Below are positions 1 to 8,601 of a stretch of 32,000 nucleotides of DNA, piece by piece (the first letter of the stretch is position 1; every line of letters begins with the position of its first letter). The notes under the pieces were generated by a model, which saw nothing but the letters and a program-made list of their open reading frames with translations, ran no database searches and was not told the DNA's origin. This DNA comes from Geotalea daltonii FRC-32 (GTDB taxonomy: Bacteria; Desulfobacterota; Desulfuromonadia; Geobacterales; Geobacteraceae): the NCBI RefSeq assembly GCF_000022265.1, contig NC_011979.1, forward strand, positions 2,610,001-2,642,000, read 5' to 3'. A program made the translations under genes and the position numbers.

Positions 1-199
1 CAGCATTGTTCCCCCTGGGCATTGCAATCTGCCGAAACCGCGTGCATGGCAGGTGATTGGTATCAAGTGGGAGCGGAAGTCCCGATGTGATAATTATATC
101 GATAAAAAGCAGGTTTACACTGATCCGGCCGAGTGCTTCGGGCTTTATTCATCACCCGGATCTGACGGATAGAAATGACTGTTTAGAGCGGGAACATTA

Positions 200-243
200 T
201 CATCCACAGCAATTGTGGATAACTTGCCTTCATCTGTGGATAA
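200..243. promoter_or_regulatory. Cluster of three DnaA-box 9-mers
   Basis: TGTGGATAA, the exact reverse complement of consensus TTATCCACA, occurs at 214-222 and 235-243. TCATCCACA (8/9) at 200-208 forms an inverted pair with the 214-222 box across a 5-bp spacer. The cluster lies in a low-GC non-coding tract, followed by very AT-rich sequence at about 300-460. Confidence 0.5.
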
Positions 244-463
244 GGGTAAAAAAGTATACGTTTCCTCAGGTACTTTTACAGTCTGCACAAGAGATAGGCA
301 GAAGATGTAAGTATTTGAAATTACGTGTCAATATAAATTTGTTATTTTTAAGATTATAATAATATAATGTTAGCGAAGGGTAAGATATGGATATTTACCT
401 GCTTGTGCATAACTACAAGAAAATCAATGAAATAGCGCTTCTTTAAAATCCAAAATCATATAA

Positions 464-778
464 ATGCACGCCAAACGTGCATATATGACCAATTTGGGAT
501 TTCAGAATCCCCCCTCAACCCCGTTCTCTGCATTAAAACCTATGTCTATCTGGTGCAAAGGAAACCGAGAATGCACTCGCTTAGGGGCCGAATCGCTTTC
601 GAACAACAATTTCAAATCGAGGATGCGGATGCTACTGTTTGCAGTAATAGGGTTGCAGAGAAAAATATTGACATCGGCCGAGGTGAAAGGAAACAGGGGA
701 GTTGAAATCAGTCTTGACCAGATGGATGCACTGATCGAGCGGACGATGCAGGTGGCAAGACACAGGAGCGGCCTGTGA
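464..778 (+). CDS. Hypothetical ORF, possibly a gene remnant, translationally coupled to the downstream metallopeptidase
   Basis: Its TGA stop (776-778) overlaps the GTG start (775-777) of the next gene as GTGA. It has low GC, no recognisable motif and an uncertain start (several in-frame Met codons). Confidence 0.2.
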   Translation: MHAKRAYMTNLGFQNPPSTPFSALKPMSIWCKGNRECTRLGAESLSNNNFKSRMRMLLFAVIGLQRKILTSAEVKGNRGVEISLDQMDALIERTMQVARHRSGL

Positions 779-1485
779 ATCTCTCCAGAGGCACCATTAT
801 CCACGGGAAGGACACCATCTGCTTCAATGTCTTATATGTGGCCAGAAAGACGTTGGAAATAGCGGTCCATCCTGACAGCAGAGTGGTGGTGAAGGCTCCA
901 GTCGGCACCCTTTTCGACGAGGTGCAAAAGAGGGTAGTAAAACGTGCAGGGTGGATAAAAAGGCAGTTGGATTACTTTCGGCAATTCGAACCGAGAACGC
1001 CGCCAAGGCGGTATCTGGGGGGAGAGACACACCTGTACCTTGGACGGCATTACCGGCTGAAGGTAGTTAAGGGGGACGAAAATATGGTGAAGCTGGTCCG
1101 GGGCCATATGTGTGTTTCTCTGGCCGAGCCTTCCCCTGAAACGGTGAAGGCACTACTGGATCAATGGTACAGACAAAAAGCAGTAGCTAAATTCAATGAC
1201 AACTTTGACCGATGCTGGCCGTCATTCAAGAAAATACTAGGAGAAAAGCCGAAGATTCAGATTCGGCGGATGAGTAAACGATGGGGAAGCTTGTCCAAAG
1301 GGGGAATTCTTACCCTCAACACCGAGCTGATCCGTGCGCCGAGGGAATGTATCGAGTATGTCATTACCCACGAGTTGTGCCATATGGAGTGCCACGACCA
1401 CAGCTCAGCCTTTTATGATCTACTGGAAAAGGTAATGCCTGACTGGGAAAAGCGAAAGCATAAGCTGGAGTTGGCACTGGTTTAA
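775..1485 (+). CDS. YgjP/DUF45-type (M48-like) zinc metallopeptidase
   Basis: The C-terminal HELCHMECHDHSSAFYDLLEKVMPDWEKRK carries the HExxH signature of the YgjP/DUF45 family. The N-terminal pattern (LEIAVHPDSRVVVKAP) and 236-aa length are typical. Only a GTG start is available. Confidence 0.85.
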   Translation: MNLSRGTIIHGKDTICFNVLYVARKTLEIAVHPDSRVVVKAPVGTLFDEVQKRVVKRAGWIKRQLDYFRQFEPRTPPRRYLGGETHLYLGRHYRLKVVKGDENMVKLVRGHMCVSLAEPSPETVKALLDQWYRQKAVAKFNDNFDRCWPSFKKILGEKPKIQIRRMSKRWGSLSKGGILTLNTELIRAPRECIEYVITHELCHMECHDHSSAFYDLLEKVMPDWEKRKHKLELALV

Positions 1486-1835
1486 TTGGGAGGGGCGCAA
1501 CTTGGACGCAGGGTGGGACAAAACATCCGTTGGTGCAGAAGTTACGCAATACGCAGGCTTATTTTTTGATGAATGACACCAGACCTGATATTGTGAATGA
1601 AGAATATGGCTGGAAGAGCATGCATTCGCTTCAACTTTTCCTTAATAAAAAGAACGCGCTTTGTTTGCCAAGAGCAGGGCTTACTGCAGAAAGGCAGCTT
1701 TATCGGAGCGACTCTGCCGGGTGCGGCGAGCGCTAAGGCAGAACTAAACCCCTTCCACATTGACAAGACCGGCTGCTGTTCGGTACACTCCCCCCAGCAA
1801 AAAAGAACAATCCCCCTGTCTGCCGGAGATCAGAA

Positions 1836-2051
1836 ATGAATGTCAACACGCGGGTGCTGCGCCGGCTTTTGGCCAGCCGCACCGATGAAATCGAAAAAGC
1901 CGTTGCCGGTACCGGTTTTCTGCCGAGAACCGTCATGGGCGTCGCCACCTTTCTCTTGGACAACGAGGGCAACACCGATCTGTTTACTGCAAAGCAGCAG
2001 GAGATCTTCGACAGATTCATCAAGCCCCTACTGGAATCCACCCGCAGATAA
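1836..2051 (+). CDS. Small hypothetical protein (71 aa)
   Basis: GGAGA (1825-1829) lies 6 nt upstream of the ATG. The ORF ends 35 nt before the exonuclease gene. No motif was recognised. The overlapping 162-aa frame (1840-2328) looks like out-of-frame Pro/Arg-rich noise. Confidence 0.4.
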   Translation: MNVNTRVLRRLLASRTDEIEKAVAGTGFLPRTVMGVATFLLDNEGNTDLFTAKQQEIFDRFIKPLLESTRR

Positions 2052-2086
2052 TTGGCTCAAGCTTTCAAAACGAAAACAAGAAAGTG

Positions 2087-3541
2087 ATGGGAGAGAAGGT
2101 GAACCAGCCGCCGCAGCTCTATTTACTGGATGGCTCCAGTTACATCTACCGCGCCTATTATGGCATCCGGGACCTTGCCACTTCTGGCGGCATGCCGACC
2201 AATGCCGTCTTCGGTTTCACCAGGATGCTCCTGACCCTCCTGCAGGAAAACCGCCCCGACTATGTGGCCGTCGTCTTCGACCCTCCCCGGGAGGATACTT
2301 TCCGCCGGGAAATCTATCCCCCTTATAAAGCCCACCGGGACGCCATGCCCGAGGATCTGGTGCCCCAGATTCCCTACATCAGGAAGATGGTGCAGGCCTT
2401 GAATATTCCTGCACTGGAAGCGCCCGGCTTTGAGGCCGACGATGTCATTGCTACCCTGGCGCGGCGCTTTGCCGCGGAAGGAATCCAGGTGACGGTGGTC
2501 ACCGGCGACAAGGATCTGCTGCAGATCGTCGGGGAGGGGATCGGCCTCCTGGACACCATGAACGAAAGGCGTTCCGGAACCGAGGAGGTCCTGGACCGCT
2601 TCGGCGTAACGCCGGAGCAGGTGGCGGATGTGTTGGGACTTGCCGGCGACACCGCGGACAATATCCCGGGGGTTCCCGGCATTGGTGAAAAGACTGCTGC
2701 CAAGCTGGTGCGGCAATTCGGCTCTCTGGAAGGGGTCCTGGAGTGGAAAAGCCTGGTCAGCGGCAAGGCGCGCCGGGAAAACCTACATGCCTGTGCCGAT
2801 CAGGCCCGGTTGTCGAAACGGCTGGCCACGGTCCGCTACGATGTTCCCCTGCAGGTGTCCCTGGTCGACCTGCAACGGCGGACCCCGGACCTCCCGGTTC
2901 TGGTTCCCCTGCTGCGTGAGCTGGGCTTTGCGGCCCTGGAGGTCGCCTTCACCCCGCCGCCAACCGGTGTGGTGGAGCTTTACAGCGACGGTTCGGGAAG
3001 GGACTCGGGGCTTGGCGGCTATGGAGTGATTCTGCGCTATGGAGATCATGAGAAGGAGCTGAGCGGTTTCGAAGCCGCCACCACCTCCCAGCGGATGGAA
3101 CTGATCGCGGCGATCAGGGGGCTGGAAGCATTGCATAGTCCGCGGAAGGTGCACCTTTTCAGCGATTCCCAGTACCTGGTGCGGGGGATGAACGAATGGC
3201 TGCAGGGCTGGATTCGTACCGGACGCCTGGAGACGCCGGACGCCCTGAAAAATCAGGATCTGTGGCAGCAACTGGCACTCCTGTCGGGCAAGCATCAGGT
3301 GACTTGCGAGTGGCTGCCGGGCCATGCCGGGCACCCCTTCAACGAGCGGTGCGACAAGCTGGCGAAACGGGCGGCAGCACAGGGGATAGCGCCCGAAGTA
3401 TCGGCAATTGCTGCAGAGGAGGTAACTAAAGAGGAAACGGTGCTGCCGGTGCCGGCCGCTCCTGTCCAGACGGTGCCGCTTGCGGCTACCGTGGAAACGG
3501 AATACGATGCCGATGCCGATGGTCAGCTGCTGCTCTGCTGA
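2087..3541 (+). CDS. Fusion protein: 5'-3' exonuclease (Pol I N-terminal/FEN-like, with H3TH) plus RNase HI domain
   Basis: N-terminal FEN motifs are LYLLDGSSYIYRAYYG, VVFDPPREDTFRREIYPPYKAHRD, FEADDVIATLA, VVTGDKDLLQIV and GLAGDTADNIPGVPGIGEKTAAKLV. The C-terminal RNase HI domain has all DEDD(H) positions (YSDGSG, SQRMELIAAI, LFSDSQY, GHAGHPFNERCDKLA). ATG at 2087 is preferred over GTG at 2084. Confidence 0.9.
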   Translation: MGEKVNQPPQLYLLDGSSYIYRAYYGIRDLATSGGMPTNAVFGFTRMLLTLLQENRPDYVAVVFDPPREDTFRREIYPPYKAHRDAMPEDLVPQIPYIRKMVQALNIPALEAPGFEADDVIATLARRFAAEGIQVTVVTGDKDLLQIVGEGIGLLDTMNERRSGTEEVLDRFGVTPEQVADVLGLAGDTADNIPGVPGIGEKTAAKLVRQFGSLEGVLEWKSLVSGKARRENLHACADQARLSKRLATVRYDVPLQVSLVDLQRRTPDLPVLVPLLRELGFAALEVAFTPPPTGVVELYSDGSGRDSGLGGYGVILRYGDHEKELSGFEAATTSQRMELIAAIRGLEALHSPRKVHLFSDSQYLVRGMNEWLQGWIRTGRLETPDALKNQDLWQQLALLSGKHQVTCEWLPGHAGHPFNERCDKLAKRAAAQGIAPEVSAIAAEEVTKEETVLPVPAAPVQTVPLAATVETEYDADADGQLLLC

Positions 3542-3764
3542 AAGGCACGGGGTCACATAGCTCAGCCGATAGAGTAGCTGGCTGCCCGAGATTTGTTTTT
3601 CATCCGTTCCACTACTGTTGTCATAAAGACTTTAATCTCCGTATTTCTTCTCCTGAGGCTTTTAATGTTAAAGGCATTGCGCATAAAAAACAATTTATGT
3701 TAATTTCCTTAGACTAGAGGTCACAGATCCGGCCAAAACCAGATCCATATAAGGAGGGGTATTT

Positions 3765-4616
3765 ATGAGGAAAACTGTTTTCGTATCGTTACTGCTTGTC
3801 TCAATGCTGTTTGTCTCGACCCTGGCGTTTGCAAAGGCTGATAAGTGGGGTAACAAGGAAGACCGCTGTGAAAAGTGCCATAGCGAGAAGCAAAACGCTC
3901 TGACCGCTGCAAGCGCGGTAACCACCAATAGCCTGATGGCTGCGGAGGCAACGGTAGCGGTGGTCAACAGCCACAAGACTTCGGCACCAATTCCGTCGTC
4001 AATGAAGCAGCAGATGATCACCTGGCTGACCGCGAACAACCTGCCGCTACCGGCCGACCCTGCCGTCAACTGGTCCATGTCCTGCAATACATGTCACGTC
4101 GTGCATGGTACCAACCCGCGGGTCTATCCAGGGCTCTTGCGTTATAACCTGCTCAATGGCGAACTCTGCCAGATGTGCCATGGCGGAACCATCAACACTG
4201 CCATCAACTGGACCACCCCCGAGGCCCGCCGGGTCCTCTATGCCCCCAGTAATCCGGGAAAACTTCAGGCAGACGGTATCACCGAAATTGTACCTCCGGC
4301 CGCGCCCAAATACGCCCAGACGGTCCGCGGTACCGTCAACTTCCCCCTTACCGCCTTCACCGGCATTCACTCGGGTAGAGTCACCGCTGATCTGGCGTAT
4401 AAAGTCACCATTCCAGGGTCGATCTTCGGCGAGCGGATCGTTTCGCCCGCCAGCCACATGAGCTGGCAGTTCGAGCCTGAAATGATCACCTGGGATACGA
4501 CTCTGGAGGCCAACCGCCCCTACATTGTCGTCATAACCCCTTTCACACCGTCAACATCCGTTGAGGCAACACCGGTCGTCCTCTCGGTATTAGTCGACAA
4601 TACGACAGCGCCATAA
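3765..4616 (+). CDS. Secreted trihaem c-type cytochrome with a C-terminal Ig-like/beta-rich domain
   Basis: It has a signal peptide (MRKTVFVSLLLVSMLFVSTLAFA) and three CxxCH motifs (CEKCH, CNTCH, CQMCH). A strong RBS, AAGGAGGGG, precedes the ATG. Confidence 0.85.
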   Translation: MRKTVFVSLLLVSMLFVSTLAFAKADKWGNKEDRCEKCHSEKQNALTAASAVTTNSLMAAEATVAVVNSHKTSAPIPSSMKQQMITWLTANNLPLPADPAVNWSMSCNTCHVVHGTNPRVYPGLLRYNLLNGELCQMCHGGTINTAINWTTPEARRVLYAPSNPGKLQADGITEIVPPAAPKYAQTVRGTVNFPLTAFTGIHSGRVTADLAYKVTIPGSIFGERIVSPASHMSWQFEPEMITWDTTLEANRPYIVVITPFTPSTSVEATPVVLSVLVDNTTAP

Positions 4617-6123: not shown

Positions 6124-6442
6124 TGTGACCTCCCTTTTTGTGATTGTGGCGGTGGTTGATGCAATGAACGCGGCCCATGTGATGCTTTAATCGAAATATT
6201 GTCTGAATTAATTGTAATTAATTATACTTTAGCATCATGGGAGCCGTCTGCAACATTTCGGACTGGAGTAATGACTTGCATGAAGGACGAAAGGCCTTGC
6301 AATCGGACCTTGAACCTTTTGCTGTTCCATTATGGCCTTCCCTTTATTACCGGTTAATCGGGATTCCGCTTCTTCCCATCCTTTAGTGTACTAATGCCCA
6401 TCTCCTTATTATTTGGACGTAAAGAATTTATTAATAAATTAC

Positions 6443-6471
6443 TTGAAATTAGTAATCCTTTTTGTTATCAA
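6443..6471 (+). promoter_or_regulatory. Candidate sigma-70 promoter for the surface-protein gene
   Basis: TTGAAA (6443-6448), a 17-nt spacer, then TATCAA (6466-6471). It lies about 50 nt upstream of the ATG at 6523. Confidence 0.3.
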
Positions 6472-6522
6472 GGGGGGCGGTGTTATTGCCTATTTCTTAA
6501 TGAACACACGGAGGAAACACTG

Positions 6523-8601
6523 ATGGGAAAACAAAGATTCAAGATATTCATGGCTGTGGTTGTTGCATTGCTTTGTGGGGCAGCCGGGCAGGGCGAGGCC
6601 GGTACACCTGTCTTCGGCAACATGTCGGGGCTTACCGTACCGGCAAGCTACAAGGTGACTAACCTGGATTTCAGTGCCATCGCAATCAACGACGCAGGGC
6701 AGGTGCTTTCCAGTGACTGCCGTTTCTATGACAAAGGCAATGTCATAAGTATCTACACGCCGGTGCAGCCGTGCATCGGTGTCGGTCTGAACAACGCCGG
6801 CCAGGCTCTTGTCTTTGGTGGCTACCAGAGTCCCGTCACCTACATTTACTCCAACGGGAATCTAACCCAGCTCAACACGGCACCATGGTACTCCCCTTCA
6901 TGGATTGTCAGACCTGAAGGCATTAACGATTCGGGAAAGGTCATTGCTACTGCCGAGTACAGTGGCTGGCTCAGCTACTCGGTTCTTTTCGACACGGTTA
7001 ATGGGACCAGTACCAACCTTTCGGCGATGATTCCCGGCGTGGGCTATAATGGCCCGCGAACCATTACCAATAAGGGGGATGTTTCCGGCTGGTACTGGGA
7101 TGCAAACTACTCTTCACAGGGCTATGTCATACGGAGCAATATCTTTTCCCAGGTGCCCTACTTTTACCCCGTCATAAATGATAACGGAGTGACCGTGGGG
7201 AATCGCTCGGTGCTTGATCCTGTTACCGGCACCAGGTACGAGCACATGTTTTATTCGAAAAACGGGATGGAGGTGGATCTGGGCAATTTCGGCGGTTCCT
7301 ACATCAGGGCGGAAGCAGTCAACGAGGCGGGGCTGGCCGTGGGATACGGTGCCTATAACCCTACTATCAATGGGTTGAACTACGGTTTTGTTACCGATGG
7401 GCGCAAGCTCTATAACCTCAATGACCTGGTCCCGGCCGGAACACCGACGATTTCGACTGCAAGCGGCATCAACGCCTATGGACAGATCGCAGCGGGGGTG
7501 ATCCTGACCCCGATTACTCCTCCTGTTACCACAGCGTATCCTGACATTGCCGCAGGGAAGGTCAGTCTGCAGGCTTTAGATTACGATTTCGGCGTTAAAG
7601 CTCTCCATTACTCTCTCAACGGGGAGGCCGAAGTCGTTGAGGCTTCCGGTGCTGCAACCATTCAGCTCGTTCCCGGGGTAACCAACACCGTCAGCTATTA
7701 TGCAATCGATAACGCCGATAATGTGGAAACGGCCCGAACCATCACCGTCAATCTCGACACCGTTCCCCCTGTGACCACCCCGGTGCTCAATGGCTATGTC
7801 GGGCAAAACGGCTGGTTTACATCGGCGGTTCAGGTGGCCCTATCGGCAATCGATAACTCATCGGGGATCGCCAGAACCGAATACAGCCCGGACGGCGTTA
7901 ACTGGACGGTCTACACCGCTCCGCTCAACATAACTGCCAGCGGCGTCACCACCGTTTACTATCGGTCTGTGGACACAAATAACAACACCGAGGCTACGAA
8001 ATCCATTGCCGTGTCCATAGATCAGGCTGCTCCGGTTACGACTGCCGTCGTCTCTGGAACCCTGGGAACCAATGGTTTGTACACCTCTGCCGTAAAAGTG
8101 GCACTAAGCGGCATCGATACAGCATCGGGTATTGCCAGGACAGAATACAGCGTTGATCAAACTACCTGGACTGCCTATGCTGCTACCGTCGATATCCAAA
8201 CCGATAGCACCACCACGGTATACTACCGCTCGGTTGATTTGGCCGGAAACGTCGAAGCAGTGAAGAGCGTAACCTTTACCATCGACAAAACCGCTCCCTT
8301 CATCGGCAGCATGAATCCTGCTGCCAATGCCGTCAACGTCCCAATCGCCTCAAGCATTACTATCATCTTCAGCGAAGATATATCAACGGGAGGGGCATTT
8401 GCCGGCGTCGCTCTCATGCGGGGCTTGACCAAAGTTGCAACCTTAAATACCGTTTCGGGCAACACTGTTACCATCAAGCCTGTCAAATTGCTTGGCAAGA
8501 TGGCTACTTACACTGTTACCGTTCCGGCCGGTGCCGTCATCGATGCTGCGGGTAACAACAGTGCCGCCAGTAGCTTCAGCTTCACCACCGGCAGACGCTA
8601 G
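6523..8601 (+). CDS. Large secreted surface protein: HAF-type repeat N-terminal region, three tandem Ig-like modules and a C-terminal SbsA/Big_5-like Ig domain
   Basis: ATG at 6523 is preceded by GGAGGA (6510-6515) and followed by a signal peptide (MGKQRFKIFMAVVVALLCGAAGQGEA). Repeated INDAGQV / LNNAGQA / INDSGKV / VNEAGLAVGY motifs match the HAF extracellular repeat. The three tandem modules contain YS.DG..W..Y...VYYRSVD..GN.E. The C-terminus (MNPAANAVNVPIASSITIIFSEDI) is SbsA-Ig-like. Confidence 0.85.
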   Translation: MGKQRFKIFMAVVVALLCGAAGQGEAGTPVFGNMSGLTVPASYKVTNLDFSAIAINDAGQVLSSDCRFYDKGNVISIYTPVQPCIGVGLNNAGQALVFGGYQSPVTYIYSNGNLTQLNTAPWYSPSWIVRPEGINDSGKVIATAEYSGWLSYSVLFDTVNGTSTNLSAMIPGVGYNGPRTITNKGDVSGWYWDANYSSQGYVIRSNIFSQVPYFYPVINDNGVTVGNRSVLDPVTGTRYEHMFYSKNGMEVDLGNFGGSYIRAEAVNEAGLAVGYGAYNPTINGLNYGFVTDGRKLYNLNDLVPAGTPTISTASGINAYGQIAAGVILTPITPPVTTAYPDIAAGKVSLQALDYDFGVKALHYSLNGEAEVVEASGAATIQLVPGVTNTVSYYAIDNADNVETARTITVNLDTVPPVTTPVLNGYVGQNGWFTSAVQVALSAIDNSSGIARTEYSPDGVNWTVYTAPLNITASGVTTVYYRSVDTNNNTEATKSIAVSIDQAAPVTTAVVSGTLGTNGLYTSAVKVALSGIDTASGIARTEYSVDQTTWTAYAATVDIQTDSTTTVYYRSVDLAGNVEAVKSVTFTIDKTAPFIGSMNPAANAVNVPIASSITIIFSEDISTGGAFAGVALMRGLTKVATLNTVSGNTVTIKPVKLLGKMATYTVTVPAGAVIDAAGNNSAASSFSFTTGRR
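7519..8298 (+). repeat. Three tandem 82-90 codon intragenic repeats (Ig-like modules)
   Basis: The units run 7519-7764, 7765-8028 and 8029-8298. Each begins with P(P/A)VTT and ends with (L/I)D..(P/A)P. Units 2 and 3 are clearly similar to each other at the protein level. Confidence 0.7.

What the first reader, a model, noticed from the sequence alone, without database searches (positions are those of the whole stretch)
2087..3541. 5'-3' flap exonuclease fused to RNase HI, ending in a clamp-binding-like QLLLC peptide
One polypeptide combines a complete Pol I-type 5' nuclease (all acidic motifs and the H3TH) with a complete RNase HI domain that has intact DEDD(H) residues. These are the two activities needed to remove Okazaki RNA primers. 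After a Pro/Ala/Glu-rich tail, the last five residues (QLLLC, 3524-3538) resemble the beta-sliding-clamp pentapeptide consensus QL(S/D)LF, which is often C-terminal. This suggests a clamp-tethered, dedicated primer-removal enzyme. I cannot tell from the sequence alone whether this architecture has been characterised biochemically.
Basis: partly seen in the sequence, partly recalled or inferred. Interest (0 to 1): 0.6.

Follow-up and report, generated by a model that had tools for sequence, protein, structure and literature searches.

The report
FEN–RNase HI fusion with docking tail
This gene encodes one protein that joins the two nucleases that can remove RNA primers from newly made DNA and ends in a short, very strongly conserved peptide that looks like a sliding-clamp-binding tag; it is an extra enzyme found only in some Geobacter-type bacteria, and no published study of it was found.

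Summary
Window 2087-3541 (+) encodes a 484-aa protein. It has a complete Pol I-type 5' nuclease (residues 10-288), a six-residue Pro hinge and a complete RNase HI domain (295-434). A disordered, variable linker (435-472) and a conserved 12-residue C-terminal peptide follow.

All catalytic carboxylates of both domains are invariant or nearly so in 62 orthologues. In 121 orthologues the tail reads [FY]-[DE]-A-[DE]-x-D-G-Q-[LF]-[LR]-L-[C/Y], with G and Q in 121 of 121.

The protein is an accessory paralogue. The same 4.3-Mb Geotalea-like genome keeps a full PolA with its own 5' nuclease, RnhA and RnhB. Orthologues were found in 57 of 301 sampled genomes of the class and in none of about 387 genomes from the rest of the phylum. 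Their nuclease domains form one clade nested among that class's PolA nucleases.

Clamp binding is plausible but untested. Q, L and L match QL(S/D)LF and the tail is flexible. However, the last residue is Cys, whereas this genome's own DnaE and DinB motifs end in Phe, and conservation extends seven residues upstream.

I found no paper on this fusion. I rate it a new variant of known kinds, of moderate interest.

The parts
2087..3541 (+). Whole coding sequence of the FEN-RNase HI fusion protein (484 aa plus a TGA stop at 3539-3541)
   Evidence: ORF list and translation. 484-aa orthologues cover 100% of the query.
2114..2950 (+). Pol I-type 5' nuclease / flap endonuclease domain, residues 10-288. 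The N-terminal PIN-like part is 11-173 and the H3TH part is 174-268.
   Evidence: Pfam PF02739 E 2.5e-59 and PF01367 E 5e-32. It aligns to Taq and M. smegmatis Pol I N-termini with all acidic residues present. It is 51% identical to the genome's own PolA. AF2 pLDDT is about 90. Foldseek best matches are plastid exonuclease 1, M. smegmatis FenA and ExoIX.
2951..2968 (+). Short Pro-rich hinge (T289-P-P-P-T-G294) between the two nuclease domains. It is highly conserved.
   Evidence: Alignment A1: mean top-residue frequency 0.95.
2969..3388 (+). RNase HI domain, residues 295-434, with D301, E338, D360, H413 and D423, including the stretch that forms the basic protrusion in E. coli RNase HI
   Evidence: Pfam PF00075 E 1.6e-35. 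It aligns to E. coli RNase HI residues 5-141. It is 49% identical to the genome's own RnhA. The catalytic residues are invariant or at least 90% conserved.
3389..3502 (+). Variable, Pro/Ala/Glu/Val-rich flexible linker, residues 435-472
   Evidence: AF2 pLDDT is 31-47 with no secondary structure. Mean column entropy over residues 436-470 is 2.33 bits, against 0.5-0.6 in the domains. Its length varies among orthologues.
3503..3538 (+). Conserved 12-residue C-terminal docking peptide, here Y-D-A-D-A-D-G-Q-L-L-L-C (residues 473-484). The clamp-binding-like core QLLLC lies at nt 3524-3538.
   Evidence: Profile over 121 orthologues: [F71/Y49]-[D61/E51]-A101-[D100/E21]-x-D113-G121-Q121-[L98/F21]-[L65/R51]-L117-[C113/Y7/I1]. 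It is kept in the most divergent orthologues. It is unique in the window's own genome. In 301 genomes of the class it occurs only at the 3' ends of fusion genes.

Best explanation
The gene encodes an accessory, bifunctional nuclease for RNA-DNA junctions. It arose once within the class Desulfuromonadia, when a copy of the polA 5'-nuclease region became joined to an RNase HI domain. The proposed mechanism has three steps. [quoted passage not shown] Second, the covalently linked 5' nuclease / flap endonuclease removes that remnant, or a displaced 5' flap, and leaves a gap or nick for a polymerase and ligase. Third, a roughly 40-residue flexible linker carries a conserved C-terminal peptide, ...D-G-Q-[LF]-x-L-[C/Y], that tethers the enzyme in trans to a replisome hub. 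The most likely hub is the hydrophobic cleft of the beta sliding clamp (DnaN) left on the finished Okazaki fragment. Shown here: the domain identities, the intact and conserved active sites, the disordered linker, the extreme conservation and exclusivity of the tail, the paralogue status and the single origin. Inferred: the order of action on primers, and above all the clamp as partner. The confidence given is for the whole package including the clamp; that it is a conserved bifunctional nuclease with a trans-docking tail I hold at about 0.9.
For: Domains and catalytic residues. The AF2 model has two confident domains (pLDDT 83, pTM 0.77) and an undocked, disordered region at 436-484. Tail conservation is set against a variable linker. 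Q480, L481 and L483 fit positions 1, 2 and 4 of the QL(D/S)LF consensus, a consensus that is known to tolerate variation and usually lies in flexible termini (PMC6511837). The genome has a canonical DnaN ending in MPMRL. The tail occurs in no other gene of the genome, and in 301 genomes of the class it occurs only at the ends of fusion genes. This is what a motif tied to this enzyme's recruitment would look like. Single origin from PolA-type nucleases of the class: the tree gives the fusion clade 100% SH-aLRT support, nested among Desulfuromonadia PolA nucleases. Precedent from papers: FEN1 carries a C-terminal PIP box, T4 RNase H carries a clamp motif (PMC3012046), and FEN1 and RNase H2 act while bound to PCNA (PMC11731006).
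Against: No binding test was possible. Position 5 is Cys in 113 of 121 orthologues (Y, I or S in others), whereas the clamp-binding-like motifs found in this genome's own DnaE and DinB end in Phe: QVSLF in DnaE at about residue 920, and QLPLF in DinB. The conserved block extends seven residues upstream ([FY]-[DE]-A-[DE]-x-D-G), which a pentapeptide clamp motif does not require and which hints at a different or additional contact. The enzyme is redundant with PolA, RnhA and RnhB and is patchily distributed, in 57 of 301 genomes, so it is not needed for bulk primer removal. Neighbouring genes give no link to replication. Expression is not shown; the only RNA data are weak metatranscriptome contigs from a relative.
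Confidence: 0.52

Rival explanations
1. The enzyme is the same bifunctional nuclease, but the conserved tail docks to a partner other than the clamp. Candidates include SSB or an SSB-tail-binding site, Pol I, the BRCT domain of NAD-dependent ligase, primase or helicase, or RNA polymerase. The recruitment logic is then different, for example to R-loops or to repair patches rather than to clamps left on Okazaki fragments.
For: The conserved block is 12 residues with an aromatic residue, three acidic positions and an invariant Gly before the Q. This is more than a clamp pentapeptide needs. An acidic run followed by a hydrophobic C-terminus is the general style of SSB-type tails; this genome's SSB ends in DDDIPF. 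E. coli RNase HI is recruited through SSB and not through the clamp, and E. coli RNase HII does not bind the clamp (PMC11253446). The last residue is not Phe.
Against: The tail lacks the Pro-Phe end that defines SSB tails. Q-[LF]-x-L at the very C-terminus is the best-known signature of clamp partners (PMC6511837). No other candidate partner has any positive evidence here.
Confidence: 0.27
2. The tail acts within the molecule or controls the protein's stability. It could be an acidic DNA-mimic that folds back on the basic nucleic-acid-binding surfaces of the nuclease domains to keep the enzyme off until it is engaged. Alternatively it could be a C-terminal degradation signal.
For: The acidic run D/E-x-D/E-x-D lies next to a hydrophobic end. 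Autoinhibitory acidic tails are known in single-strand-binding proteins (general knowledge). An unregulated double nuclease might be harmful to the cell, which is an inference.
Against: AF2 with a 63-sequence alignment does not dock the tail onto either domain; pLDDT is 31-47. The invariant G-Q and the strict spacing to the C-terminus look like a specific peptide-in-groove contact rather than a charge mimic. The tail does not resemble the known ssrA-type (LAA) end.
Confidence: 0.1
3. The fusion is a functionless or decaying by-product of gene duplication, and the tail is a neutral leftover.
For: It is fully redundant with PolA, RnhA and RnhB and is patchily distributed.
Against: Identity is 60-89% across 16 families of the class, with no stops in the reading frame. 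Catalytic residues are invariant. The tail is far more conserved than the linker. Thousands of metagenomic copies exist.
Confidence: 0.02

Closest known systems
E. coli-type two-enzyme primer removal: the Pol I 5' nuclease domain plus free RNase HI
   Same: The two catalytic modules are the same. The nuclease domain is 51% identical to the genome's own PolA N-terminus. The RNase H domain is 49% identical to its own RnhA and aligns to E. coli RNase HI with all catalytic residues.
   Different: Here the two modules form one polypeptide with no polymerase or 3'-5' exonuclease, and a linker and conserved tail are added. E. coli RNase HI is recruited through the SSB tail, and how Pol I is recruited is unsettled (PMC11253446).
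Eukaryotic and archaeal FEN1 and RNase H2 on PCNA (the RNase H/FEN1 route of Okazaki maturation)
   Same: The division of labour is the same: an RNase H cuts the primer RNA and a flap/5' nuclease removes the junction remnant. FEN1 has an unstructured C-terminal clamp-binding peptide (PMC3012046), and FEN1 and RNase H2 work while bound to PCNA (PMC11731006).
   Different: Those are separate proteins. Their RNase H is type 2, not type 1, and their motif is a PIP box (QxxLxxFF) that binds PCNA. Here a covalent fusion of bacterial-type domains carries a QLxL[C/Y] end, which would be a convergent solution. Clamp binding is not shown here.
Stand-alone bacterial FEN paralogues (E. coli ExoIX/Xni, M. 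smegmatis FenA, plastid exonuclease 1)
   Same: They share the fold and family and are the best structural matches (TM to target 0.78-0.91). All are extra 5' nucleases present beside Pol I.
   Different: Those proteins have no RNase HI domain and no such tail. Xni lacks the second metal site, whereas this protein keeps every acidic residue of both sites.
Other FEN/RNase HI fusions: the Piscirickettsia salmonis 441-aa protein (RNase HI then FEN, P0131) and an unnamed 460-aa metagenomic family (FEN then RNase HI, P0130)
   Same: The same two domains lie in one chain.
   Different: These are independent origins. They fall outside the Desulfuromonadia fusion clade. One has the reverse domain order. 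Neither ends in the DGQLxLC tail.
Chimallivirus Rhc (an RNase HI domain fused to a sliding-clamp-like domain)
   Same: An RNase HI module is physically coupled to the processivity-clamp function of a replisome (bioRxiv 10.64898/2026.10.01.755736).
   Different: In Rhc the clamp-like domain is part of the protein itself, there is no FEN domain, and the protein is phage-encoded. Here the link to the clamp, if any, is made by a short peptide.
Bacterial beta-clamp-binding motifs (consensus QL(D/S)LF)
   Same: Q at position 1 and Leu/Phe at positions 2 and 4, placed at the extreme end of a disordered region and conserved among orthologues (PMC6511837).
   Different: Position 5 is Cys, Tyr, Ile or Ser rather than Phe or Leu. 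There is an additional conserved acidic and aromatic stretch upstream. Binding has not been tested.

Membership tests
Pol I-type 5'-3' exonuclease / flap endonuclease (Pfam PF02739 + PF01367) | Both Pfam domains score above their gathering thresholds | tested here: met
   200.1 bits against a cut-off of 34.3, and 110.7 bits against 40.
Pol I-type 5'-3' exonuclease / flap endonuclease (Pfam PF02739 + PF01367) | A full set of acidic metal ligands for both metal sites, plus the H3TH GxPGxG element | tested here: met
   D15, D65, E116, D118, D119, D141, D143, D188 and D191 align with the Taq residues, and 'NIPGVPGIGEKTA' is present. These residues are invariant or at least 90% conserved in A1.
Pol I-type 5'-3' exonuclease / flap endonuclease (Pfam PF02739 + PF01367) | Structure-specific 5' nuclease activity | not testable with these tools
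   This needs purified protein and flap or nick substrates.
Xni/ExoIX class of FEN (one metal site only) | Loss of the second-site aspartates | tested here: not met
   All second-site residues are present. The NCBIfam Xni model scores 175 bits against a cut-off of 261. The protein is not a member.
RNase HI (Pfam PF00075; NCBIfam PRK00203) | The D-E-D-D catalytic carboxylates plus the His equivalent to E. coli H124 | tested here: met
   D301, E338, D360, D423 and H413 align with E. coli D10, E48, D70, D134 and H124. They are invariant or at least 90% conserved.
RNase HI (Pfam PF00075; NCBIfam PRK00203) | Family model score above the curated cut-off | tested here: inconclusive
   Pfam is clearly met: 122.8 bits against 25.8. 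The NCBIfam equivalog model scores 157.2 bits, just under its cut-off of 160. It is therefore an RNase HI domain, but NCBI's model would not call it the RnhA equivalog.
RNase HI (Pfam PF00075; NCBIfam PRK00203) | Basic protrusion (handle) typical of E. coli-type RNase HI | tested here: met
   The alignment to E. coli residues 5-141 is continuous through the region at about 80-100, with only a 1-2 residue gap. The AF2 model has helices at 362-378 and 384-402.
Beta-clamp-binding motif, QL(D/S)LF | Q at position 1 and hydrophobic Leu/Phe/Met at positions 2 and 4 | tested here: met
   Q in 121 of 121; L98/F21 at position 2; L117/F4 at position 4.
Beta-clamp-binding motif, QL(D/S)LF | Phe (or Leu) at position 5 | tested here: not met
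   C113, Y7 and I1, and S or Y-R in the most divergent orthologues. The genome's own DnaE has QVSLF and its DinB has QLPLF.
Beta-clamp-binding motif, QL(D/S)LF | Located in a flexible terminal or loop region and conserved among orthologues | tested here: met
   AF2 pLDDT is below 50 for 436-484. Conservation is shown.
Beta-clamp-binding motif, QL(D/S)LF | Physical binding to the cleft of DnaN | not testable with these tools
   The structure tool folds single chains from the window only. No multimer prediction or assay is available.
SSB-type C-terminal tail (D-D-D-[IL]-P-F) | An acidic run followed by a terminal Pro-Phe | tested here: not met
   An acidic run is present, but the end is Q-L-x-L-C and no Pro-Phe occurs in any of the 121 orthologues. 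The genome's own SSB ends in DDDIPF.

The most novel reading that the evidence does not exclude
Some Desulfuromonadia carry a bacterial, single-chain counterpart of the eukaryotic and archaeal FEN1 plus RNase H2 toolbelt on PCNA. It is a covalent 5'-nuclease/RNase HI enzyme that rides the beta clamp through a non-canonical C-terminal motif (D-G-Q-L-x-L-C, ending in Cys rather than Phe). It can remove whole RNA primers without strand-displacement synthesis by Pol I. This would be a distinct, clamp-coupled route of Okazaki maturation or hybrid removal in bacteria, and a new sequence class of clamp-binding motif.
Probability: 0.4. Interest if true: 0.65.

Novelty: new variant of a known kind. Interest (0 to 1): 0.5.

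Why it matters
How bacterial primer-removal enzymes find their substrates is still open. The reviews read here say the recruitment of Pol I remains to be uncovered. They also say E. coli RNase HI is brought in by SSB, while RNase HII does not bind the clamp (PMC11253446).

A natural protein that welds the two primer-removing nucleases together and carries a conserved terminal docking peptide is a ready-made experimental handle. Its partner can be identified with one peptide. Its activity on Okazaki-like substrates would show whether an RNase H/FEN route, as in eukaryotes, can work in bacteria.

If the tail binds DnaN, it widens the accepted clamp-motif pattern to include a terminal Cys and an acidic lead-in, which would help motif searches. 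The family is also a clean example of domain recruitment from polA.

The limits are real. It is an accessory gene of one bacterial class, and both domains are textbook families.

Tried and rejected
(1) A complex prediction of the tail with DnaN was not possible. The structure tool takes single chains or alignments of window proteins only, so I did not attempt a work-around.

(2) Gene neighbourhood. The neighbours in the window are a YgjP-like metallopeptidase upstream and a multihaem cytochrome c downstream. In relatives they are a DbpA-type helicase upstream and a GNAT acetyltransferase downstream. Synteny is weak and carries no replication signal.

(3) A defence-system reading was rejected, because PADLOC gave no hit.

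(4) I asked whether the tail is a general motif shared by other proteins. In the window's own genome only this gene carries it. In 301 genomes of the class, 41 of 42 matches of the DNA pattern lie at the 3' ends of fusion genes. The remaining match is a chance hit in a 19-aa frame.

(5) Expression. Only two rice-paddy metatranscriptome runs hold 5% of the sampled words. Contigs about 90-95% alike cover parts of the gene, including the 3' end. They come from a relative and could be carried-over DNA, so I do not use them as evidence of expression.

(6) Literature. Five successful full-text searches and eight papers consulted turned up no description of this fusion. The library lacks most subscription journals, so this is not proof that none exists.

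(8) The simple scans found no sigma-70-like promoter and no terminator flanking the gene.

(9) The absence counts are soft. Fifty-four genomes contain withheld (N) stretches. One same-genus genome scored negative, although a named Geotalea toluenoxydans record carries a 93% identical orthologue.
Full report
**What is there.** Window 2087-3541 (+) is an open frame of 484 codons plus TGA. Pfam finds three domains far above threshold:
- 5_3_exonuc_N at residues 11-173, E 2.5e-59
- 5_3_exonuc/H3TH at 174-268, E 5e-32
- RNase_H at 296-430, E 1.6e-35

NCBIfam's best models for the N-terminal half are DNA polymerase I, residues 10-285 on model positions 2-278 of 889. For the C-terminal half the best model is ribonuclease HI, at 157.2 bits, just under the equivalog cut-off of 160.

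No solved protein chain matches both halves. Every PDB hit covers either about 6-285 (Pol I N-termini, FEN paralogues) or about 296-431 (RNase HI). A fold search on the AlphaFold model gives the same picture.

**Active sites.**
- In the alignment to Taq Pol I, D15, D65, E116, D118, D119, D141, D143, D188 and D191 sit on the Taq acidic residues. The H3TH motif NIPGVPGIGEKTA is present.
- In the alignment to E. coli RNase HI residues 5-141, D301, E338, D360, H413 and D423 correspond to D10, E48, D70, H124 and D134. The alignment runs through the basic-protrusion region almost without gaps.
- In an alignment of 62 orthologues plus one distant fusion (A1), these residues are invariant or at least 90% conserved.

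Both halves therefore look catalytically competent. Activity itself is inferred.

**Shape.** AlphaFold2 with A1 gives mean pLDDT 83.4 and pTM 0.77. Residues 10-288 and 295-434 are confident. Residues 436-484 have no secondary structure and pLDDT 31-47. The tail is therefore not predicted to fold back on the enzyme.

**The tail.** Of the 120 best homologues, 119 end in a near-identical peptide; the one exception is a truncated entry. Over 121 full-length orthologues the last 12 positions read:

[F71/Y49]-[D61/E51]-A101-[D100/E21]-x-D113-G121-Q121-[L98/F21]-[L65/R51]-L117-[C113/Y7/I1]

Mean column entropy:

| Region | Entropy (bits) |
|---|---|
| Nuclease domain | 0.59 |
| RNase H domain | 0.53 |
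| Linker | 2.33 |
| Tail | 1.04 |

The most divergent orthologues found, at 60-62% identity, end in ...ECEEDGQFRFS and ...ECEEDGQLRLYR. The D-G-Q-[LF]-R-[LF] core persists while the final residue drifts.

The tail is exclusive to this family:
- In the window's own genome no other real ORF of at least 100 aa ends in Q[LF]x[LF]+hydrophobic, and the extended motif occurs only once in six frames.
- A DNA pattern for D-G-Q-[LF]-x-[LF]-C-stop hit 42 of 301 genomes of the class.
- Forty-one of those hits lie exactly at the 3' ends of fusion genes listed. The remaining hit lies in a 19-aa frame.
- The reversed control pattern hit five times.

**Is it a clamp-binding motif?** These points favour it:
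- Q, L and L occupy positions 1, 2 and 4 of the QL(D/S)LF consensus.
- The motif sits at the extreme end of a flexible region.
- The consensus is described as tolerant of variation (PMC6511837).
- The genome has a canonical DnaN whose sequence ends in MPMRL.

These points weigh against it or qualify it:
- This genome's own DnaE (QVSLF at about residue 920) and DinB (QLPLF) carry clamp-binding-like motifs that end in Phe. The fusion ends in Cys.
- The conserved block reaches seven residues upstream of the Q, with an aromatic residue, three acidic positions and an invariant Gly. A plain pentapeptide motif does not need these.
- The tail is not an SSB-type tail. The genome's SSB ends in DDDIPF, and no orthologue of the fusion has a Pro-Phe end.

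Binding could not be tested with the tools available. I put the clamp at roughly 0.5-0.55, another partner at about 0.27, and an intramolecular or stability role at about 0.1.

**Place in the genome and in evolution.** The genome is one contig of 4,304,501 bp. Its closest named relative for this protein is Geotalea toluenoxydans, at 93% identity. Other named carriers are Geobacter, Geomonas, Citrifermentans, Geomesophilobacter, Desulfuromonas, Pelobacter and Syntrophotalea. I infer that the window comes from a Geotalea/Geobacteraceae genome.

The genome also encodes three enzymes with overlapping activities, so the fusion is an extra paralogue:
- a full-length PolA of 905 aa with its own 5' nuclease, 51% identical to the fusion
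- a 146-aa RnhA, 49% identical to the fusion's RNase H domain
- an RnhB

Distribution:
- In a sample of 301 genomes of the class, 57 carry the fusion, in 16 of 27 families. Nearly all of these show three matches, which I read as the fusion, PolA and RnhA. Most non-carriers show two.
- In about 387 sampled genomes from the rest of the phylum, none has an orthologue at E <= 1e-120.
- The absence counts are soft, because some genomes contain withheld stretches.

A maximum-likelihood tree of the nuclease domains puts all 18 sampled fusions in one clade (SH-aLRT 100). That clade is nested among the PolA nucleases of the class. Two other fusions lie elsewhere and so arose independently:
- a 460-aa metagenomic family with the same domain order but no such tail
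- the 441-aa Piscirickettsia salmonis protein, which has the reverse order, RNase HI then FEN

Databases label the Desulfuromonadia proteins simply 'ribonuclease HI'.

**Context.** The neighbours in the window are a YgjP-like metallopeptidase upstream and a multihaem cytochrome c downstream. In relatives they are a DbpA-type helicase and a GNAT acetyltransferase. Synteny is weak and uninformative. There is no PADLOC hit, and the simple scans found no promoter or terminator flanking the gene. RNA evidence is limited to metatranscriptome contigs of a relative and is not usable as proof of expression.

**Mechanism proposed.** From established enzymology, RNase HI needs a run of ribonucleotides and leaves the junction ribonucleotides. 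Pol I-type 5' nucleases remove 5' RNA or DNA at nicks and flaps (PMC11253446, PMC7102940). Joining the two would let one molecule clear a whole primer, or the RNA of an R-loop plus its 5' remnant. The linker and tail would hold it on a replisome hub.

This is the same logic as FEN1 and RNase H2 on PCNA (PMC11731006). [quoted passage not shown] It also resembles the phage protein Rhc, in which an RNase HI domain is fused to a clamp-like domain (bioRxiv 10.64898/2026.10.01.755736).

- Shown here: the domains, residues, disorder, conservation, exclusivity, paralogy and single origin.
- Inferred: the substrates, the order of action and the partner.

**Novelty.** Both domains are textbook families, and databases already hold the architecture under a generic name. 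I found no paper that describes it, but the library searched is incomplete. Three things appear new:
- recognition of a monophyletic, class-restricted accessory family
- its origin from polA
- the 12-residue invariant tail with a clamp-motif-like core ending in Cys

I rate it a new variant of a known kind, with interest 0.5.

Noticed in passing
ARAGORN finds no tRNA in 3400-3900. Rfam gives only a chance-level hit at E 0.21. The sequence can form a CAGCC/GGCTG hairpin followed by a T-rich run, but the terminator scan did not call it.
   Followed up: partly
window 1-2000 versus 2001-4000: G+C rises from 0.479 upstream to 0.582 across the fusion gene; the genome mean is 0.535. Together with the patchy distribution and weak synteny, this may point to insertion or turnover at this locus. 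I did not analyse it further.
   Followed up: no
P0131 (Piscirickettsia salmonis, 441 aa) and P0130 (metagenomic, 460 aa): These are independent fusions of the same two nuclease domains. P0131 has the reverse order, with RNase HI at residues 4-140 and FEN at 157-427. P0130 has the same order as the window protein but no conserved QLxLC tail. FEN+RNase HI fusions have therefore arisen at least three times.
   Followed up: partly
own genome C1:3490920-3492227 (+), DinB: The Pol IV homologue carries its QLPLF clamp-like motif about 70 residues before the C-terminus and is followed by an extra C-terminal extension (...FGEFSVTYGTLL...ISPAWRPQGIRKVDVE). This is unlike E. coli Pol IV, where the motif is terminal.
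   Followed up: no
L015:1557-2966, L017 and L028 (relatives): In several Desulfuromonadales genomes a DbpA-type DEAD-box RNA helicase lies directly upstream of the fusion gene and a GNAT acetyltransferase lies downstream. Neither is present next to the gene in this window.
   Followed up: partly
window 6394-8601 (+): A 735-aa secreted-looking protein contains three near-repeats of a module of roughly 90 residues ('...VTT..L.G..G.NGW/LYTSAV.VALS.ID..SGIARTEYS.DG..W..Y...'). I did not examine it.
   Followed up: no
(same-genus genome G053): The same-genus genome G053 shows no fusion in the whole-genome search but has 5,666 withheld bases. A named Geotalea toluenoxydans record has a 93% identical orthologue. 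Absences in the distribution table may therefore be artefacts of masked stretches.
   Followed up: partly
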